Positions 9,262 through 39,304 of a DNA stretch of 64,000 nucleotides are shown here, in pieces. This DNA is from a virus. Position 1 is the stretch's first letter. Each line of letters begins with the position of its first letter. The notes below the pieces were generated by a model, which searched no databases, was not told where the DNA came from, and worked only from the letters and a program-made list of their open reading frames with translations. Location: the IMG/VR virus record IMGVR_UViG_3300045988_083782; one strand, given 5' to 3'. A program made the translations under genes and the position numbers.

Positions 9262-9384
9262 GAGAGAGTAGTGGAATCGAACCACTCCCTGTTTAAGCAT
9301 AATTTACTCAATTAATGAATTAAACTGTCCTAAATATGATACAGATTTTTTATAATCTTATCGCACCTTGCAGACGCACTCTCT
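9262..9384 (-). ncRNA. long tRNA-like element (acceptor stem and T-arm clear, body of about 90 nt unresolved)
   Basis: Minus strand: 5' AGAGAGT ... AGTGG TTCGATT CCACT ACTCTCT C 3'. It has a perfect 7-bp acceptor pairing and a canonical T-arm. Total length is 123 nt. Confidence 0.35.
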
Positions 9385-12973: not shown

Positions 12974-15109
12974 TTAAAATAACGATAACTGTCTTGGTTT
13001 TAAATCTTCGATTATCTTATAGCATTCTCTTAAATAATATCTATAATTAATCTTACGATCTTCTATTGGTTTATCATCGAACATATTTAGTAGAGTAACA
13101 CCAGATGCCGTAAGCATATTCTGATACTGTTTAGTATCAGGTACTAAAGGTGGATTATACGGATCTTTACCTTCTTGAATTAAACTCCAATATGCCATAT
13201 CTGATAATTCGCTTGGATTCCAAGCATAGTGTTCTCCTATTCCTTTCCATTTCCATAAATATGCACCATCTGTAGATGCATAGAAACGATTCGTTCGCTG
13301 TATTTCTTGATTCATGTATTCAACATGCCACTGTTTACCAGTCTTTTCAGACATCAAGAATTTCTTAATATCTGTGCAACCTTTAACAGTGTCTTCAACA
13401 GGAATTCCATCTACAAAATACTTTATAATAGCTTCAGGTATGATTTTAGGTGATAAACCCTTACCTAGTAATACTTCGGTAATAAACATTCCTTTAGTTT
13501 TTATATAGTCTTTGCGAATTTCATCCATATTTCTGTATGTTTCTCCTTTTGCATTCGTAGCTCCATACTTAATATGATCTCCTGTTTTAGGATCCATTAC
13601 TGCTGTAAAATCTCTGAATTCATGCTTTTTCTTAGCATAACCTTCTTTTACTGCAATATAGTCATTGATCGCATATTGATACATAGCCTCAAAACGATCT
13701 TCTTCTAATGTTAGTTTAGTTAATTGTTCCCACTCTCTACATACGATGTTTACTTTATCATATACAGATTTCTTAAGTAAGACAAATAAACCATCAGTAT
13801 TTGCTTGTACTATTCGGCACCCTAGCTCTACTAATTTCTCTGCTAACATTAATAACAATAACTGTCCATTAATACGTATTTGCATTACTGCAAATGGACT
13901 ATAACAGAAGTTATGTTCATTTTGAAGATTACCACTCAAACCATTAAGTGCTAACTTCAATGTACTATCTTTAATTTTATCTCCGTTATGTTTAGCTTCT
14001 ATTCTTTCAGATCTAATCTGAGAATATACTTCTAAGAATTCTGGACCTAAATGTTTAGGATAAAATCCATATTCTATCAACATACTTGGATATAGTGACG
14101 CTACGTCAATATCGATAAGCATTTCATCTTCTGCTGGAATTATTATTTCAGGATCATTCTTAGAATGAATCCCACCAACTCCAACAGTATATCTCAATCC
14201 ACCAAATACAAAGTTCTTTTCATAACCTTTTCTGCCAGGAGAAACTACTTGAGTTTTCATTTCATCTAGTATAGATTTAAGTATAGGACTATCGTATTTA
14301 ATAAAAGGTAATATAACATCTTTCAGTGGTATATAGGCTTGAGGAGATCTTAAGTCTTTAATATCCCACCATGTTAAGCCTGTCTTTTCAAGATATTTGT
14401 GAGTTAGAATTTTCATTCCAATATTCACTCCATCTTTACTAAGAACTTTTACACCATACTCGTCTTCAATAGCTAATCGCAAATCAATATCTTTCTTACA
14501 CCTATCAAGTAATGCAGAAGTAGATTCAATATCATTGATATTATAATCTATCATACTGTCAAAATCTTCAATAGGCAAAGGCTTACTCCAATCACATACA
14601 AATTCCTGTACATTCTTGTATTGCATAGTAACCTGAATTTCTTTCAAGCCTACTCTAAGTTTATTAGAGTAAAGCATAGTGAGAATATCAAAGCTATCAA
14701 ACCATACTTGATATTTCCATCTTTTCCATTTTTCTATATTCTCTCCAGAGTTGGTAATCTCTCTACTTAGATTGAATATAGAATTAGTAATTACAGGTAC
14801 AGGATTTTCAGCAAGTACATGTTCATACTCTATAATGTAATTGATGACAGGATTATCATAATGTAAATTGTTATAACCGCAGAATATTTTATCTGAGTCG
14901 ATACTACAATTCGTAGTATAGTTATCATTCCATGAAACAGGCAAATTTACTTGTTTAAAGAACGATATAAGTTCAGATAACTGATTTTTACGAGGAGATA
15001 TTTCAAACTTATGTATTTCTTTTGTTTCTGTATTAATAGCAGAACAATGAAAGATATTTTGAAATACTTCGATATCATATACAAATACGGTTTTACCTCT
15101 GATTTGCAT
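12974..15109 (-). CDS. family B DNA polymerase
   Basis: Exo I VYDIEVF, Exo II HYDNPV, Exo III YNINDIEST, motif A DVASLYPS, motif B KLALNGLSGN, motif C QANTDGLFV. Confidence 0.9.
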   Translation of the reverse strand: MQIRGKTVFVYDIEVFQNIFHCSAINTETKEIHKFEISPRKNQLSELISFFKQVNLPVSWNDNYTTNCSIDSDKIFCGYNNLHYDNPVINYIIEYEHVLAENPVPVITNSIFNLSREITNSGENIEKWKRWKYQVWFDSFDILTMLYSNKLRVGLKEIQVTMQYKNVQEFVCDWSKPLPIEDFDSMIDYNINDIESTSALLDRCKKDIDLRLAIEDEYGVKVLSKDGVNIGMKILTHKYLEKTGLTWWDIKDLRSPQAYIPLKDVILPFIKYDSPILKSILDEMKTQVVSPGRKGYEKNFVFGGLRYTVGVGGIHSKNDPEIIIPAEDEMLIDIDVASLYPSMLIEYGFYPKHLGPEFLEVYSQIRSERIEAKHNGDKIKDSTLKLALNGLSGNLQNEHNFCYSPFAVMQIRINGQLLLLMLAEKLVELGCRIVQANTDGLFVLLKKSVYDKVNIVCREWEQLTKLTLEEDRFEAMYQYAINDYIAVKEGYAKKKHEFRDFTAVMDPKTGDHIKYGATNAKGETYRNMDEIRKDYIKTKGMFITEVLLGKGLSPKIIPEAIIKYFVDGIPVEDTVKGCTDIKKFLMSEKTGKQWHVEYMNQEIQRTNRFYASTDGAYLWKWKGIGEHYAWNPSELSDMAYWSLIQEGKDPYNPPLVPDTKQYQNMLTASGVTLLNMFDDKPIEDRKINYRYYLRECYKIIEDLKPRQLSLF

Positions 15110-15130: not shown

Positions 15131-15243
15131 ATCCCGTAGAAGGATTCGAACCTTCGTCTTAAACCTTATTAGCTCAGTCGGATTTTACAAAGACTACTAC
15201 CTTGCTATACAGCTATATATGTCTAGCAGCTAAGTGTACGGGA
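15131..15243 (-). ncRNA. long tRNA-like element (113 nt)
   Basis: Minus strand: 5' TCCCGTA ... GAAGG TTCGAAT CCTTC TACGGGA T 3'. It has a perfect acceptor pairing and T-arm. I could not fold the interior into D and anticodon arms. Confidence 0.35.
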
Positions 15244-24930: not shown

Positions 24931-25023
24931 TTACATATGATTTAGTAAATCAGTAATGATATACCATTCAATGAATATAACAATACCTAAAAACAGTAAG
25001 ATAAGATATTGATACCATTTCAT
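24931..25023 (-). CDS. 30-aa hydrophobic peptide (tentative)
   Basis: MKWYQYLILLFLGIVIFIEWYIITDLLNHM, ATG to TAA, immediately upstream of gene 24929. Confidence 0.3.
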   Translation of the reverse strand: MKWYQYLILLFLGIVIFIEWYIITDLLNHM

Positions 25024-25060
25024 AGTTTCTGTATTATTATGATTTAACAAGTTAAAGGAA

Positions 25061-25126
25061 GGACAAAGGGTGGGATTCGAACCCACCATCTCTATTTCTA
25101 GCGTATTACCACAATACTACTTTGTC
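25061..25126 (-). ncRNA. 66-nt tRNA-like RNA with no anticodon loop
   Basis: GACAAAG TA GTAT-TGTGGTA-ATAC G CTA-GAAA-TAG AGAT GGTGGG-TTCGAAT-CCCACC CTTTGTC C. Acceptor stem, D-arm with GG and T-arm are intact. The anticodon arm is a 3-bp stem capped by a GAAA tetraloop. Confidence 0.45.
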
Positions 25127-25440
25127 TTATTAAGTTCTAATATTTTACAGGGTCGAGAGCTTACAACAACACCTAACCAATTTATTACACGCAGGGATAT
25201 GACGTGGCTTTTTACGGCATTAGCTTAGCCGTTTGACTATTCTCAAGCACTCAGGCGAGTATAGTCAGATACGAAAGTTTTGCCAGTTATTGGCTTTATT
25301 GACCTATTCATTCTCTTCTTATCGCTGTCAAAAACCATAATGCCCCAGGTTTATACCGTTCAAAGATTTAAGAACTTGAAGCACGGTATCACACTATCAA
25401 AAACTCTAGTTCTATTTCCTTAGTAGCTTTTAATAAAGCG

Positions 25441-25553
25441 TGGAGCATGAGGGGGTCGAACCCTCGTCCAAACGACGAATCAAATGACCTAACAGTCAAT
25501 GTGAATAGGCAGTTAACCAAAACTACCTACTCTAATATAAACAAATACTCTCC
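25441..25553 (-). ncRNA. long tRNA-like element (113 nt)
   Basis: 5' GGAGAGT ... GAGGG TTCGACC CCCTC ATGCTCC A 3'. The acceptor pairs at 6 of 7 positions (one of them G-U, one A.G mismatch). The T-arm is canonical and the interior is unresolved. Confidence 0.3.
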
Positions 25554-26511: not shown

Positions 26512-26908
26512 TATAGTTATTTAAACGAAATTCAAAAAGAAGACTACTCTACTTATTTCTAATACTTATTCGTAGATAACCCTTTTCCTTCTCCTGACCC
26601 TATTATAGGGTTGACCGTTGTATAGTCCATAGTACTCTAGCTCACGCTTGTGGCTTCCTTTAGGGGTTTGGTATATTTGTAGTCTTCGGGGGACTGGTTC
26701 ACCATTTACTAACATTTAGTTGAGTAAAAAACCTACAGTCTATCTGGCGGAAATCCTGTAGTTCAAAAATTGTAAACTGTAATCCGATCATTGATTGCAA
26801 TTCTGCAAAGCACTTCTACGGTCATACGGATCCATTTTACGGATCTTTTTAGTTGAACGTTTTCGTGCCTGAGCTTTCTGAGAAAGCTTTGAGCCTGGAT
26901 ATGAGTCC

Positions 26909-27627: not shown

Positions 27628-27980
27628 TAATTTGATGACGTCTACTATTCTGCACCATAGTAGAATGTTAATAAAGACAACTCTTTGTCTTGGTATTATG
27701 CAGATACCACGTTTGCTACATACACTAACTTATTAAGCATGAAATCTTGTAACTAATTAATCTTAACTCCCACTAAGCACTTTTAAAGTTATGCAGAAAT
27801 CACGTGGAAATGAAATCTTACTAACTACCTGATTTTTACGTCCGCACGATCATAAGTATAGATGTAATAACTCTTTGCACGTCACGATACATCTACGTGA
27901 ACAGTGACTGATCTGAGTTTCTAATATACTTACTTACGCCCCACAGGTTTGTCATTTTCTGATGATTTAAAGTAATTTAA

Positions 27981-30395: not shown

Positions 30396-30477
30396 TGCTA
30401 GTTCAAGGATTCGAACCTCGATGGATTCCTCCACATTCTCAATGAGAATGCGCGTCTACCAATTCCGCCAAACTAGC
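30396..30477 (-). tRNA. type II (Leu-like) tRNA-like gene with aberrant, fully self-complementary anticodon arm (formal anticodon AUU, C33)
   Basis: GCTAGTT TG GCG-GAATTGGTAGA-CGC G CATTC-TCATTGA-GAATG TGGA-GGAA-TCCA T CGAGG-TTCGAAT-CCTTG AACTAGC A. The D-arm is that of tRNA-Leu. The segment CATTCTC ATT GAGAATG can close to a 7-bp stem with a 3-nt loop. Confidence 0.55.
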
Positions 30478-31399: not shown

Positions 31400-32169
31400 T
31401 GTGTTGATATAATAGTTAGATACCTAAAGAAATTTGACACTTATTGTTCAGTTAGTGTCAGACTGTCAAGCACCTCATTAAGCATATCGAGGTAATAGCT
31501 TATTCCCATCTATACTTGCTTTGGTTAGTTGCTACTAAAGGATGCACTCACAGCGAACCTAACTGTGTCCTTACCATATGGTTTTACTATTATAATCTAT
31601 TAATGTGCATTTTACACCTAAAACTTAAAACTAAAGGAATTCTCTACTCTGGCATTATGACCCTAGGGATCAATGTTGTAGTAGCTAAGTATTTATGTGG
31701 ATAGTCCACAACCTTTAGATTCACATAAGAAACTGGTGCCCTCAATGTCTTGGGAAGTTATTGAGTTTTTTAGAGTGAGATACACATTAGGCAAAGCTCT
31801 CGAGTTTGTACGTGAGAGAGTACACAGATTTATAAAGGTCTTATATGCCCTTTTGACCTATAAATTCAATATAAGGCTTTGTAATTTCATCAAAAGCCTT
31901 TAGAAAACTTCCAGTATTTCACTATGACTGCATTTCACATAGTGTTACTTGAATCTCGCTCAAGTGCAAAGTTCTAATCTCGTAGAACACAATATAGACT
32001 ATTATTCTCTGGTCTATAAGCAGATAGTAACAAGCTCTTCGCTTCGGTGGTCTATGTTACCTAACCACGCTAAGACTTACATAGATTTTCACTATCGCTT
32101 AGTTTTCTATTAAATGATCATGATTATGAAAGTTTAGAGTATATACGCTTTCAACTTTTTAAATGATAC

Positions 32170-39015: not shown

Positions 39016-39090
39016 TCTCCTATGGTGTAATGGTTAGCACAGGAGGCTCTAACCCTCTTAGTCTGAGTTCGAATCTTAGTGGGAGTACCA
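39016..39090 (+). tRNA. amber suppressor tRNA, anticodon CUA (reads UAG), probably Gln-type
   Basis: TCTCCTA TG GTGT-AATGGTTA-GCAC A GGAGG-CTCTAAC-CCTCT TAGT CTGAG-TTCGAAT-CTTAG TGGGAGT A CCA. The anticodon loop CU-CUA-AC has U33 and A37. The D-arm UGGUGUAAUGGUUAGCAC resembles tRNA-Gln genes as I recall them. CCA is encoded. Confidence 0.85.
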
Positions 39091-39226: not shown

Positions 39227-39299
39227 GGCGGGATGTAGCAGTTGGTAGCTAGTCAGGCTCATAACCTGAAGGTCGTTGGTTCGAGTCCAACTCCCGCAA
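39227..39299 (+). tRNA. tRNA with anticodon CAU (Met, or Ile2 if lysidine-modified)
   Basis: GGCGGGA TG TAGC-AGTTGGTA-GCTA G TCAGG-CTCATAA-CCTGA AGGTC GTTGG-TTCGAGT-CCAAC TCCCGCA A. Position 1:72 is a G.A mismatch. Confidence 0.8.
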
Positions 39300-39304
39300 C
39301 ATTT

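What the first reader, a model, noticed from the sequence alone, without database searches (positions are those of the whole stretch)
25061..25126. 66-nt tRNA-shaped RNA with a GAAA-capped mini-helix in place of the anticodon arm
On the minus strand there is a perfect 7-bp acceptor stem (GACAAAG/CTTTGTC). There is also a D-arm with the GG dinucleotide (GTAT-TGTGGTA-ATAC) and a canonical T-arm (TTCGAAT loop). Where the anticodon arm should be, the sequence is only CTA-GAAA-TAG. The elbow and acceptor needed for recognition by RNase P, RNase Z or the CCA-adding enzyme are kept, but decoding is impossible. The element lies in an ORF-free island 315 nt downstream of another tRNA-like element. Possible roles are a processing signal (mascRNA-like), a decoy for tRNA-targeting host defences, or a decayed tRNA gene.
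Basis: partly seen in the sequence, partly recalled or inferred. Interest (0 to 1): 0.7.

Follow-up and report, generated by a model that had tools for sequence, protein, structure and literature searches.

The report
Anticodon-less tRNA mimic ending phage tmRNA
A 66-base tRNA look-alike that cannot read codons sits exactly at the end of a gut-phage gene for a two-piece ribosome-rescue RNA (tmRNA), and every related phage has some tRNA or stripped-down tRNA stub at that spot, so it most likely marks where the host's tRNA-trimming enzymes cut the RNA free.

Summary
Window 25061-25126 (- strand) folds into a cloverleaf with a 7-bp acceptor stem, a D arm, a T arm and only CTA-GAAA-TAG where the anticodon arm should be. 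Rfam tRNA scores it 31.7 bits; ARAGORN does not call it.

The "other tRNA-like element" 315 nt upstream is the acceptor piece of a circularly permuted, two-piece tmRNA in a crAss-like phage (Suoliviridae). The 66-nt element directly follows the tmRNA coding piece.

In about 150 related phage contigs, an acceptor-stem plus T-arm module always follows the coding piece. The part between the two varies from an 11-nt linker to a full tRNA. ARAGORN calls only 16 of 125 as tRNAs. Acceptor and T stems covary strongly.

A second site, 15-21 nt upstream of the DNA polymerase gene, shows the same tRNA-to-stub series.

Best explanation (confidence about 0.6, no expression data): a tRNA-derived processing module. 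RNase P would cut at its 5' end to make the tmRNA coding piece's 3' end, and RNase Z would free the downstream mRNA. This resembles mascRNA or plant mitochondrial t-elements. It is a new variant of a known kind.

The parts
25061..25126 (-). 66-nt tRNA-like element: acceptor, D arm, 3-bp GAAA-capped mini-helix, T arm and discriminator C
   Evidence: Sequence; cloverleaf MFE with z = -3.1; Rfam tRNA 31.7 bits with a truncated anticodon arm; RNAalifold cloverleaf on 4 variants.
25120..25126 (-). Acceptor stem 5' strand, GACAAAG. It pairs with CTTTGTC at 25062-25068.
   Evidence: Seven Watson-Crick pairs. At the same position in relatives there are 21 different acceptor helices, all complementary.
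25103..25117 (-). D arm, GTAT-TGTGGTA-ATAC, with GG in the loop
   Evidence: In variants the U-A pair becomes U.G and the loop changes G>A and A>T.
25092..25101 (-). Mini-helix CTA-GAAA-TAG in place of the anticodon arm
   Evidence: Invariant in all window-type copies. The sister cassette has GTA-GACAA-TAC or GCA-GACAA-TGC at the same place, a compensatory change.
25069..25087 (-). T arm: a 5-bp (6-bp with G25087-C25069) stem and a TTCGAAT loop
   Evidence: Variants change G-C to G.U only. T loop is TTCGANT in 46 of 49 unique relatives.
25126..25127 (-). Predicted RNase P cleavage site, between 25127 and 25126. Cutting here would give the 3' end of the tmRNA coding piece and the 5' end of the tRNA-like RNA.
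   Evidence: Inference from the structure. No cleavage data.
25441..25500 (-). tmRNA acceptor piece: T arm GAGGG-TTCGACC-CCCTC (25465-25449), acceptor 3' strand ATGCTCC (25448-25442), discriminator A at 25441.
   Evidence: ARAGORN tmRNA*; Rfam tmRNA_permuted 36.3 bits; tmRNA annotated at the homologous place in cr52_1, cr60_1, cr114_1 and cr125_1.
25347..25440 (-). Intervening segment of the permuted tmRNA gene, removed on maturation
   Evidence: Rfam alignment. In the cr114_1 type this segment holds a tRNA-His.
25127..25346 (-). tmRNA coding piece. It contains GGGGCAT (25346-25340; G3.U70 with ATGCTCC), the tag ORF GKTFVSDYTRLSA* (25284-25243), the conserved 3' pseudoknot motif CGGCTAAGCTAATGCCGTAAAAAGC (25231-25207), and an extra 80-nt 3' domain (25206-25127) found only in this subclade.
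   Evidence: Tag peptides are conserved across 51 ARAGORN calls. The motif and insert were compared.
24931..25023 (-). First downstream ORF (30 aa, hydrophobic). Its ATG lies 37 nt after the tRNA-like element.
15132..15243 (-). Second tRNA-like element (112 nt; acceptor TCCCGTA/TACGGGA, T arm GAAGG-TTCGAAT-CCTTC). It ends 22 nt before the ATG of the DNA polymerase gene (12974-15109).
   Evidence: Relatives carry a tRNA-Arg(TCT) or a 47-118-nt tRNA-like at this same place.
9263..9384 (-). Third tRNA-like element (122 nt). It ends 43 nt before the ATG (9219) of an AAA ATPase gene.
   Evidence: (z = -2.7). Conserved in 7 close relatives, with one internal hairpin replaced.

Best explanation
The 66-nt element is a tRNA-derived, non-decoding processing module at the 3' end of a phage-encoded two-piece tmRNA gene.

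Proposed mechanism:
1. The tmRNA gene (acceptor piece, intervening segment, coding piece), the tRNA-like element and the downstream ORFs are transcribed together on the - strand.
2. Host RNase P recognises the stacked acceptor and T-arm helices and the D/T elbow of the element. It cuts at the element's 5' end (25127|25126). This creates the 3' end of the 220-nt tmRNA coding piece, just as the same enzyme creates that piece's 5' end at G25346.
3. RNase Z, or an equivalent 3' processing route, cuts after the discriminator (25061) and frees the downstream mRNA.
4. The released tRNA-like RNA may receive CCA. It cannot decode, because the anticodon arm is a 3-bp helix with a GAAA loop.

Shown here: the structure, its position, its universal presence, and the fact that selection acts only on the acceptor/T-arm module.
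Inferred: co-transcription, the enzymes, and the cleavage sites.
For: 1. Structure and tRNA-model match.

2. The upstream gene is a real permuted tmRNA. ARAGORN calls it. Rfam tmRNA_permuted scores 36.3 bits here and 50.9 bits (above the gathering score of 47) in cr114_1. RefSeq annotates a tmRNA at the homologous place in relatives. GGGGCAT/ATGCTCC gives a G3.U70 pair. Tag peptides are conserved.

3. Of 142 loci found through the tmRNA 3' motif, 141 carry an acceptor plus T-arm element right after it; the exception is cut by a contig end. In 34 of 49 unique variants the element starts 3 nt after the motif.

4. Retrieval anchored on the resume-codon region is independent of the element. It found 149 loci, and all of them have the element.

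5. Only the acceptor and T arm are constrained. There are 21 distinct acceptor helices and 20 distinct T stems, 98.9% of cells are paired against 62% in shuffles, and 11 of 12 pairs show double changes. The body ranges from 11 nt (no D or anticodon arm) to 48 nt or more. ARAGORN calls only 16 of 125 as tRNAs.

6. The same pattern appears at a second site. A tRNA-Arg(TCT) or a 47-118-nt uncallable tRNA-like ends 15-21 nt before the DNA polymerase ATG in 14 of 14 loci.

7. No terminator-like hairpin lies between the element and the next ORF.

8. Established knowledge. Acceptor/T-arm minihelices are substrates of bacterial RNase P (McClain, Guerrier-Takada and Altman 1987; from my own knowledge). 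Permuted tmRNA precursors are cut by tRNA-processing enzymes (PMC11915505).
Against: - There are no transcript or cleavage data of any kind.
- Synteny alone would also be expected for a trans-acting RNA gene.
- The helices used for the covariation counts were picked by a script that required pairing, so the percentage paired is inflated. The alignment was not picked that way.
- The window type differs from most relatives. Its discriminator and trailer are C-TTC rather than A-CAA, there is one extra nucleotide or pair between the T stem and the acceptor, and N-1 is A.
- Between otherwise 100% identical phages the cassette is the one diverged block (62-82% identity). That turnover could reflect selection on a trans function.
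- The host's RNase P and RNase Z were not examined.
Confidence: 0.6

Rival explanations
1. A trans-acting tRNA mimic. The released RNA would act as a decoy or sponge for a host factor that recognises the acceptor/T-arm half of tRNA. Candidates are a tRNA-targeting defence toxin, the CCA-adding enzyme, T-loop modification enzymes, or EF-Tu. Its position next to the tmRNA would then be only inherited gene order.
For: - The cassette is the single diverged block between otherwise identical phages, as expected under an arms race.
- Several non-decoding tRNA-likes exist in one genome.
- The tRNA elbow is kept in the window type.
Against: - Known anticodon nucleases need the anticodon loop, which is missing here.
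- The body is almost unconstrained, from an 11-nt linker to a 91-nt insert, which does not fit mimicry of a particular tRNA.
- The element abuts the tmRNA 3' pseudoknot at +3 nt in most lineages.
- At the second site it ends a fixed 15-21 nt before a start codon. These are cis features that a decoy does not need.
Confidence: 0.15
2. A 3'-terminal tRNA-like cap that stays attached to the tmRNA coding piece. Like a plant-virus TLS, it would be trimmed and CCA-tailed at its 3' end and would protect the coding piece from 3' exonucleases such as RNase R.
For: - It is always at the extreme 3' end of the coding piece.
- Two-piece tmRNA is known to be an RNase R target in Caulobacter (my own knowledge).
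Against: - A complete 7-bp acceptor with a T arm is a standard RNase P substrate, so it would be expected to be cut off.
- The same kind of element stands in front of protein genes, where no cap role applies.
- In some lineages it is an ordinary tRNA (Ile, Leu).
Confidence: 0.1
3. A functionless relic of a tRNA gene that once lay downstream of the tmRNA and is decaying.
For: Some relatives still have a callable tRNA-Ile or tRNA-Leu at this place.
Against: - Every one of about 150 loci keeps a paired acceptor and T arm with compensatory changes.
- In window-type copies, all 8 variable columns preserve the structure.
- Indels are confined to the body, while the acceptor and T arm stay identical.
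Confidence: 0.05
4. A copy of a host tRNA 3' end serving as a phage attachment site, or an intrinsic terminator formed by the T-arm hairpin and the CTTTGTCCTT tail.
For: - tRNA and tmRNA 3' ends are common att sites.
- The simple scan lists the T-arm hairpin as terminator-like.
Against: - The T arm plus acceptor 3' strand has no exact match in 185,579 species-representative genomes.
- The 5' acceptor strand is conserved and covaries, which an att site does not need.
- In most lineages the trailer is A-rich (ACAA...), not a U tract.
Confidence: 0.03
5. A tag-less mini-tmRNA (tRNA-like domain only, as in mycobacteriophage DS6A) that competes with host tmRNA.
For: - Its size of about 65 nt and its lack of an anticodon arm resemble the CDS-less forms mentioned in PMC11915505.
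- It lies next to a tmRNA gene.
Against: - It has C3-G70, not the G3.U70 needed for alanine charging.
- It has a normal D stem.
- No tmRNA model matches it.
Confidence: 0.02

Closest known systems
mascRNA / MEN-beta tRNA-like elements at the 3' ends of MALAT1 and NEAT1 (Rfam RF01684)
   Same: - A tRNA-shaped element with a reduced anticodon arm lies directly at the 3' end of a stable non-coding RNA.
- The proposed logic is the same: RNase P cutting at the mimic's 5' end makes the upstream RNA's 3' end, and RNase Z plus the CCA enzyme finish the small RNA.
   Different: - Here the setting is a dsDNA phage of gut bacteria, not a vertebrate nucleus, and the upstream RNA is a two-piece tmRNA.
- There is no sequence or model match.
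- Cleavage has not been shown here.
- The form varies from a real tRNA to a bare minihelix.
Plant mitochondrial t-elements and the mitochondrial tRNA punctuation model (Forner et al. 2007, PMC1920247, listed; Ojala et al. 1981, from my own knowledge)
   Same: - tRNAs or degenerate tRNA-like structures sit in intergenic positions and define the ends of neighbouring transcripts through RNase P and RNase Z.
- The second and third sites here lie 22 and 43 nt before start codons.
   Different: - The system is a phage genome, not an organelle.
- Processing is inferred, not mapped.
Synthetic acceptor/T-arm minihelix substrates of RNase P, RNase Z and the CCA-adding enzyme (my own knowledge)
   Same: Relatives with an 11-24-nt linker in place of the D and anticodon arms (L004, L008, L002, L029) are natural versions of these minimal substrates.
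   Different: - These are natural and evolutionarily maintained.
- The window copy still keeps a D arm and a mini-helix.
Two-piece (circularly permuted) tmRNA of Alphaproteobacteria, some Betaproteobacteria and Cyanobacteria (RF04321; PMC11915505)
   Same: The neighbouring gene has the same permuted order, G3.U70, a tag ORF, and maturation by tRNA-processing enzymes.
   Different: - It is phage-encoded (Crassvirales, Suoliviridae).
- A tRNA-like module ends the coding piece. I found no description of this in the searchable literature.
SpF41 sRNA of streptococci (RF02435)
   Same: Its consensus is also tRNA-like, with a short tetraloop-capped hairpin in place of the anticodon arm and a GGUUCGAAUCC T arm. 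It gave a weak match of 29.0 bits, E = 0.029.
   Different: - The score is far below its gathering score of 52.
- SpF41 carries its own terminator and is uncharacterised.
- This is a resemblance only.

Membership tests
Decoding tRNA (Rfam RF00005) | 7-bp acceptor stem, D arm with GG, T arm with a TTCRANY loop | tested here: met
Decoding tRNA (Rfam RF00005) | 5-bp anticodon stem with a 7-nt loop, U33 and an anticodon | tested here: not met
   Only CTA-GAAA-TAG is present. ARAGORN makes no call.
Decoding tRNA (Rfam RF00005) | Score at or above the Rfam gathering score (29 bits) | tested here: met
   31.7 bits with permissive filters. Not listed by the default gathering scan.
mascRNA-type tRNA-like 3'-end processing element | tRNA-like fold with a reduced anticodon arm directly at the 3' end of a stable ncRNA on the same strand | tested here: met
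   It follows the tmRNA coding piece. This is universal in relatives.
mascRNA-type tRNA-like 3'-end processing element | RNase P cleavage at its 5' end generates the upstream RNA's mature 3' end; RNase Z and CCA addition finish the small RNA | not testable with these tools
   No RNA-end data or enzyme assays are available.
mascRNA-type tRNA-like 3'-end processing element | Match to the RF01684 model | tested here: not met
   No hit at E <= 10 in the region.
t-elements / tRNA punctuation | tRNA or tRNA-like structures placed in intergenic spacers next to mRNA ends | tested here: met
   The three elements end 37, 22 and 43 nt before same-strand start codons. At the polymerase site the distance is 15-21 nt in 14 of 14 loci.
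t-elements / tRNA punctuation | Transcript ends mapped to the borders of the element | not testable with these tools
   No transcript data.
tmRNA tRNA-like domain / CDS-less mini-tmRNA | G3.U70 alanine identity pair and a match to a tmRNA model | tested here: not met
   C3-G70. No tmRNA model hit on 25061-25126.
SpF41 sRNA (RF02435) | Score at or above the gathering score (52 bits) | tested here: not met
   29.0 bits.
Permuted two-piece tmRNA (for the neighbouring gene, RF04321) | Acceptor piece before coding piece, G3.U70, and a tag ORF after a resume codon | tested here: met
   ARAGORN tmRNA*; sequence; conserved tags; RefSeq annotation in relatives.
Permuted two-piece tmRNA (for the neighbouring gene, RF04321) | Score at or above the gathering score (47 bits) | tested here: inconclusive
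   The window scores 36.3 bits. Relatives score 38.9-50.9 bits and only cr114_1 passes. The model was built from bacterial sequences only.

The most novel reading that the evidence does not exclude
Suoliviridae crAss-like phages would use a mitochondrion-like "tRNA punctuation" system. tRNA-derived modules, reduced in many lineages to anticodon-less mimics or bare acceptor/T-arm minihelices, would be cut by host RNase P and RNase Z. That cutting would excise a phage-encoded two-piece tmRNA and set the 5' ends of replication-gene mRNAs (DNA polymerase, AAA ATPase). The fast cassette turnover would then hint that the released mimics have a second, trans-acting role.
Probability: 0.45. Interest if true: 0.72.

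Novelty: new variant of a known kind. Interest (0 to 1): 0.6.

Why it matters
If this reading is right:
- It explains how the outer 3' end of a two-piece tmRNA is made when the gene is embedded in a phage operon.
- It shows that the tRNA-like processing signals known from vertebrate lncRNAs and organelles also operate in abundant human-gut phages.
- It provides a natural evolutionary series, from real tRNA through anticodon-less cloverleaf to minihelix, at two genomic sites. That series marks the minimum of a tRNA that the processing enzymes need in vivo.

There is also a practical point. Phage annotation pipelines miss most of these elements or mislabel them, for example as "tRNA-Leu" overlapping the tmRNA in cr60_1.

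Tried and rejected
- **Covariance model.** I built a model from the sister cassette (R1). It scored ordinary tRNAs higher than the window element (18.7 bits) and shifted the acceptor register, so it was useless for a specific search or a structural alignment, and I dropped it.
- **MAFFT alignment.** Aligning the window type with the sister types (A1) misaligned the mini-helix and the acceptor 3' strand. I did not use it for pair counts.
- **BLAST of the cassette against 50,697 phage genomes.** This gave only generic T-arm hits.
- **Exact search of the T arm plus acceptor 3' strand in 185,579 genomes.** No hits. This rejects the host-tRNA copy / att-site idea.
- **An upstream GGAGNNT that can pair with the tmRNA's ATGCTCC**. 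I judged it chance: about 1.6 such 6-of-7 matches are expected per 120 nt.
- **The shared GCTAGAAATAG between the window element and the L052 polymerase-site element.** It may be convergence on a stable GNRA hairpin. The 10-mer also occurs in unrelated contexts, and 5.6 chance hits are expected in 1.33 Mb.
- **Coding potential under TAG-as-sense.** Stop-free frames do cross the region, but the substitution pattern preserves RNA structure.
- **Literature searches** for tmRNA with crAss, Crassvirales, RAGATH, or tRNA-like plus RNase P found no description of this arrangement. The supplements of the tmRNA database paper held nothing on phages.

Full report
**Observation**

On the - strand, 25126-25061 reads GACAAAG-TA-GTAT-TGTGGTA-ATAC-G-CTA-GAAA-TAG-AGAT-(G)GTGGG-TTCGAAT-CCCAC(C)-CTTTGTC-C. 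RNAfold gives exactly this cloverleaf: -19.6 kcal/mol, z = -3.1, and no shuffle out of 200 folds as well. The Rfam tRNA model matches end to end at 31.7 bits (gathering score 29), with the anticodon arm collapsed to 3 bp plus 4 nt. ARAGORN does not call it, and the default Rfam gathering scan did not list it. The described structure is therefore real, and the element cannot decode.

ARAGORN calls a permuted tmRNA at 25152-25532 on the same strand, with tag GKTFVSDYTRLSA*. Rfam tmRNA_permuted matches 25243-25500 at 36.3 bits.

- The T arm and acceptor 3' strand ATGCTCC-A end at 25441.
- The partner strand GGGGCAT (25346-25340) starts the coding piece and forms G3.U70.
- BLAST places the window among crAss-like phages of the family Suoliviridae. 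Structural genes are about 77% identical to those of cr114_1, cr60_1 and others.
- RefSeq annotates a tmRNA at the homologous place in these relatives.
- Rfam tmRNA_permuted scores 50.9 bits in cr114_1.
- Tag peptides are conserved as G(N/K)..V.DYTR(L/I).A.

The "ORF-free island" is therefore a two-piece tmRNA gene. The 66-nt element begins where its coding piece ends.

**Comparative evidence at this site**

The conserved 3' pseudoknot motif of the coding piece (CGGCTAAGCTAATGNCGTAAAAAGC; window 25231-25207) retrieved 125 viral contigs, later 142 loci.

- In 141 of 142 loci an acceptor helix plus T arm follows the motif. The exception is cut by a contig end.
- In 34 of 49 unique variants the element starts 3 nt after the motif.
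- In the window's subclade an extra 80-nt domain is inserted first.
- Across the 49 unique elements there are 21 different acceptor helices and 20 different T stems, all complementary.
- T loops are TTCGANT in 46 of 49. The trailer is A-CAA in 34 of 49.
- A pair count on 29 unique acceptor/T-arm modules gives 98.9% paired cells against 62% in shuffles and 45-53% when slid. Eleven of 12 pairs show changes on both sides. The caveat is that these helices were located by a script that demanded pairing. Chance would give a perfect 7-bp partner in roughly 8% of loci (my estimate), not in nearly all.
- The segment between the acceptor 5' strand and the T stem is almost free. It is an 11-24-nt linker with no arms in the L004, L008, L002, L029, L012 and L049 types, 33 nt in the window type, 39-48 nt in tRNA-sized types, and 91 nt with an insertion in L031/L042.
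- ARAGORN accepts only 16 of 125 as tRNAs: Ile-GAT 9, Leu-TAA 3, and 4 with odd loops.
- A second retrieval was anchored on the resume-codon region and so is blind to the element. It gave 149 loci, 65 of them with variant 3' motifs. All carry the module.
- More distant genera (cr4_1, cr53_1) have it too.

**The window type itself**

Eight sequence variants from more than 12 assemblies share the element.

- All variable columns are in loops or linkers, or convert a pair to G.U (D stem U-A to U.G; T stem G-C to G.U).
- CTA-GAAA-TAG and the acceptor stem never change.
- Phages that are 100% identical to the window over the whole tmRNA carry a different cassette at the same spot (62-82% identity over 25040-25159 only). 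It reads GTGTGAG-TC-GTGC..CAC-AG-GTA-GACAA-TAC-..-GTGGG-TTCGAAT-CCCAC-CTCACAT-A.
- That cassette has the same architecture: a D arm and a short helix with a GNRA-like loop.
- In this sister class all 18 pairs are 100% paired and 9 show double changes. One of them is in the short helix, U-A to C-G.

The mini-helix is thus a maintained feature of one cassette class, but other classes dispense with it.

**A second and a third site**

I scanned the window for acceptor/T-arm modules; shuffled windows give 0.76 hits. The scan found two more on the - strand, at 15132-15243 and 9263-9384. Neither matches any Rfam family.

- Both are intergenic. They end 22 nt before the ATG of the DNA polymerase gene (phrog_1252, E = 5.6e-143) and 43 nt before the ATG of an AAA ATPase gene.
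- In all 14 loci that include the polymerase start, a tRNA or tRNA-like ends 15-21 nt before the ATG.
- That element is a callable tRNA-Arg(TCT) in some loci. In the others it is an uncallable element of 47-118 nt, including a 58-nt form without an anticodon arm and a 72-nt form whose anticodon loop is replaced by GAAA.
- Window, L134 and L093 share an identical acceptor and T arm but have bodies of 112, 86 and 92 nt.
- The ATPase-site element is conserved in seven close relatives, with one internal hairpin swapped.

**Interpretation**

What is selected at these sites is the acceptor/T-arm half of a tRNA, often with a GG-containing linker (7 of 8 arm-less linkers). It always lies at a junction between two functional RNAs. 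The enzymes that recognise this half are RNase P, RNase Z and the CCA-adding enzyme (established knowledge). Permuted tmRNA precursors are already matured by tRNA-processing enzymes (PMC11915505).

The most economical reading is a processing module. RNase P cutting at 25127|25126 releases a 220-nt coding piece (25346-25127), and 3' processing after 25061 frees the downstream mRNA. The closest analogues are mascRNA and plant mitochondrial t-elements (PMC1920247). I put this at about 0.6, because no RNA-end data exist.

**Rivals**

- A trans-acting decoy (0.15) is suggested by the cassette turnover. It is hard to square with an almost unconstrained body and with the fixed cis positions.
- An attached protective cap (0.1) conflicts with the element being a good RNase P substrate.
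- A dead relic (0.05) is contradicted by the universal pairing.
- An att site or terminator (0.03) is contradicted by zero matches in 185,579 genomes and by A-rich trailers in most lineages.
- A tag-less mini-tmRNA (0.02) fails because the element has C3-G70.

**Membership and novelty**

The element is not a decoding tRNA, because the anticodon arm test fails. It is not a member of RF01684 or of SpF41 (29 bits against 52), and it is not a tmRNA domain. It works like a mascRNA or t-element, but that is inferred.

I found no description of tRNA-like modules ending phage two-piece tmRNAs in the searchable literature. I rate it a new variant of a known kind, interest 0.6.

Noticed in passing
window 15132-15243 (-): A 112-nt tRNA-like element (perfect acceptor and T arm, no Rfam hit) ends 22 nt before the DNA polymerase ATG. 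Relatives have a tRNA-Arg(TCT) or a 47-118-nt degenerate tRNA-like at the same place.
   Followed up: yes
window 9263-9384 (-): A 122-nt tRNA-like element (fold z = -2.7) ends 43 nt before the ATG of an AAA ATPase gene. It is conserved in 7 close relatives, with one internal hairpin replaced.
   Followed up: partly
window 30396-30477 (-): ARAGORN calls this "tRNA-Asn(att)" (type II, long variable arm; Rfam 45 bits). Its anticodon arm can form a perfect 7-bp hairpin with a 3-nt loop (CATTCTC-ATT-GAGAATG). Relatives are called Arg(cct) or Asn(att), so it may be another non-decoding tRNA-like.
   Followed up: no
window 26537-26697, 27827-27966, 31435-31633 (all -): RAGATH-9, a Hatchet ribozyme and RAGATH-7 lie on the same strand as the tmRNA. 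In relatives, RAGATH-9 or RAGATH-20 lies just upstream of the tmRNA. They could define the acceptor piece's 5' end.
   Followed up: no
window 39016-39090 and 39227-39300 (+): A suppressor tRNA with anticodon CTA (CCA encoded) and a tRNA-Met. Together they suggest TAG reassignment in part of this phage's genes.
   Followed up: no
L142 (cr6_1) ~490-515; L143 (cr113_1); L144 (cr4_1) ~590-610: The tmRNA acceptor piece is interrupted inside the T loop or T stem. Only the 3' half (..CCCGT ATGCTCC A) lies near the coding piece, and an opposite-strand ORF sits beside it, annotated "endonuclease" in cr6_1 and cr113_1. This looks like an intron or homing-endonuclease insertion in a permuted tmRNA. It probably explains why ARAGORN called a tmRNA in only 51 of 126 loci.
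   Followed up: no
L004 1571-1643 (cr114_1), and two other loci: A normal tRNA-His (tRNA-Ile in two further loci) lies inside the tmRNA intervening segment, between the acceptor piece and the coding piece.
   Followed up: partly
L066 and L118, 15 nt upstream of the DNA polymerase ATG: A 118-nt element has the acceptor GGGGTAT/ATACTCC-A (G3.U70, tmRNA/alanine-like) and a T arm CATGGG-TTCGATT-CCCAT. It could be a second, one-piece tmRNA-like or alanine-accepting RNA.
   Followed up: no
L031, L042, L154, L180 (tmRNA-downstream element): A 123-nt variant carries a G+C-rich insertion of about 50 nt (GGGGGCGG.GGGAAAGGA.CTGATACCCAATCCCCTCAG...) where the anticodon arm would be. Its nature is unknown.
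   Followed up: no
L005, L025, L031, L035, L144: start of the tmRNA intervening segment: A T-arm-like hairpin, GTTCG-TTCGACT-CGAAC, lies 4 nt after the tmRNA discriminator.
   Followed up: no
window 25040-25159 compared with L011: The cassette region is the only diverged block (62-82% identity) between phages that are 100% identical across the whole tmRNA. This points to recombinational replacement of the tRNA-like cassette.
   Followed up: partly
L007, L036, L043, L082, L099 and L145 (cr53_1) ~490-570, upstream of the tmRNA: A conserved non-coding stretch, TAAGTCTGAGATCGCGACAATAAGATTGTCCTCTAGAAATAGAG...GTCGTGACATCAAGTT, contains the same CUAGAAAUAG hairpin. I did not identify it.
   Followed up: no
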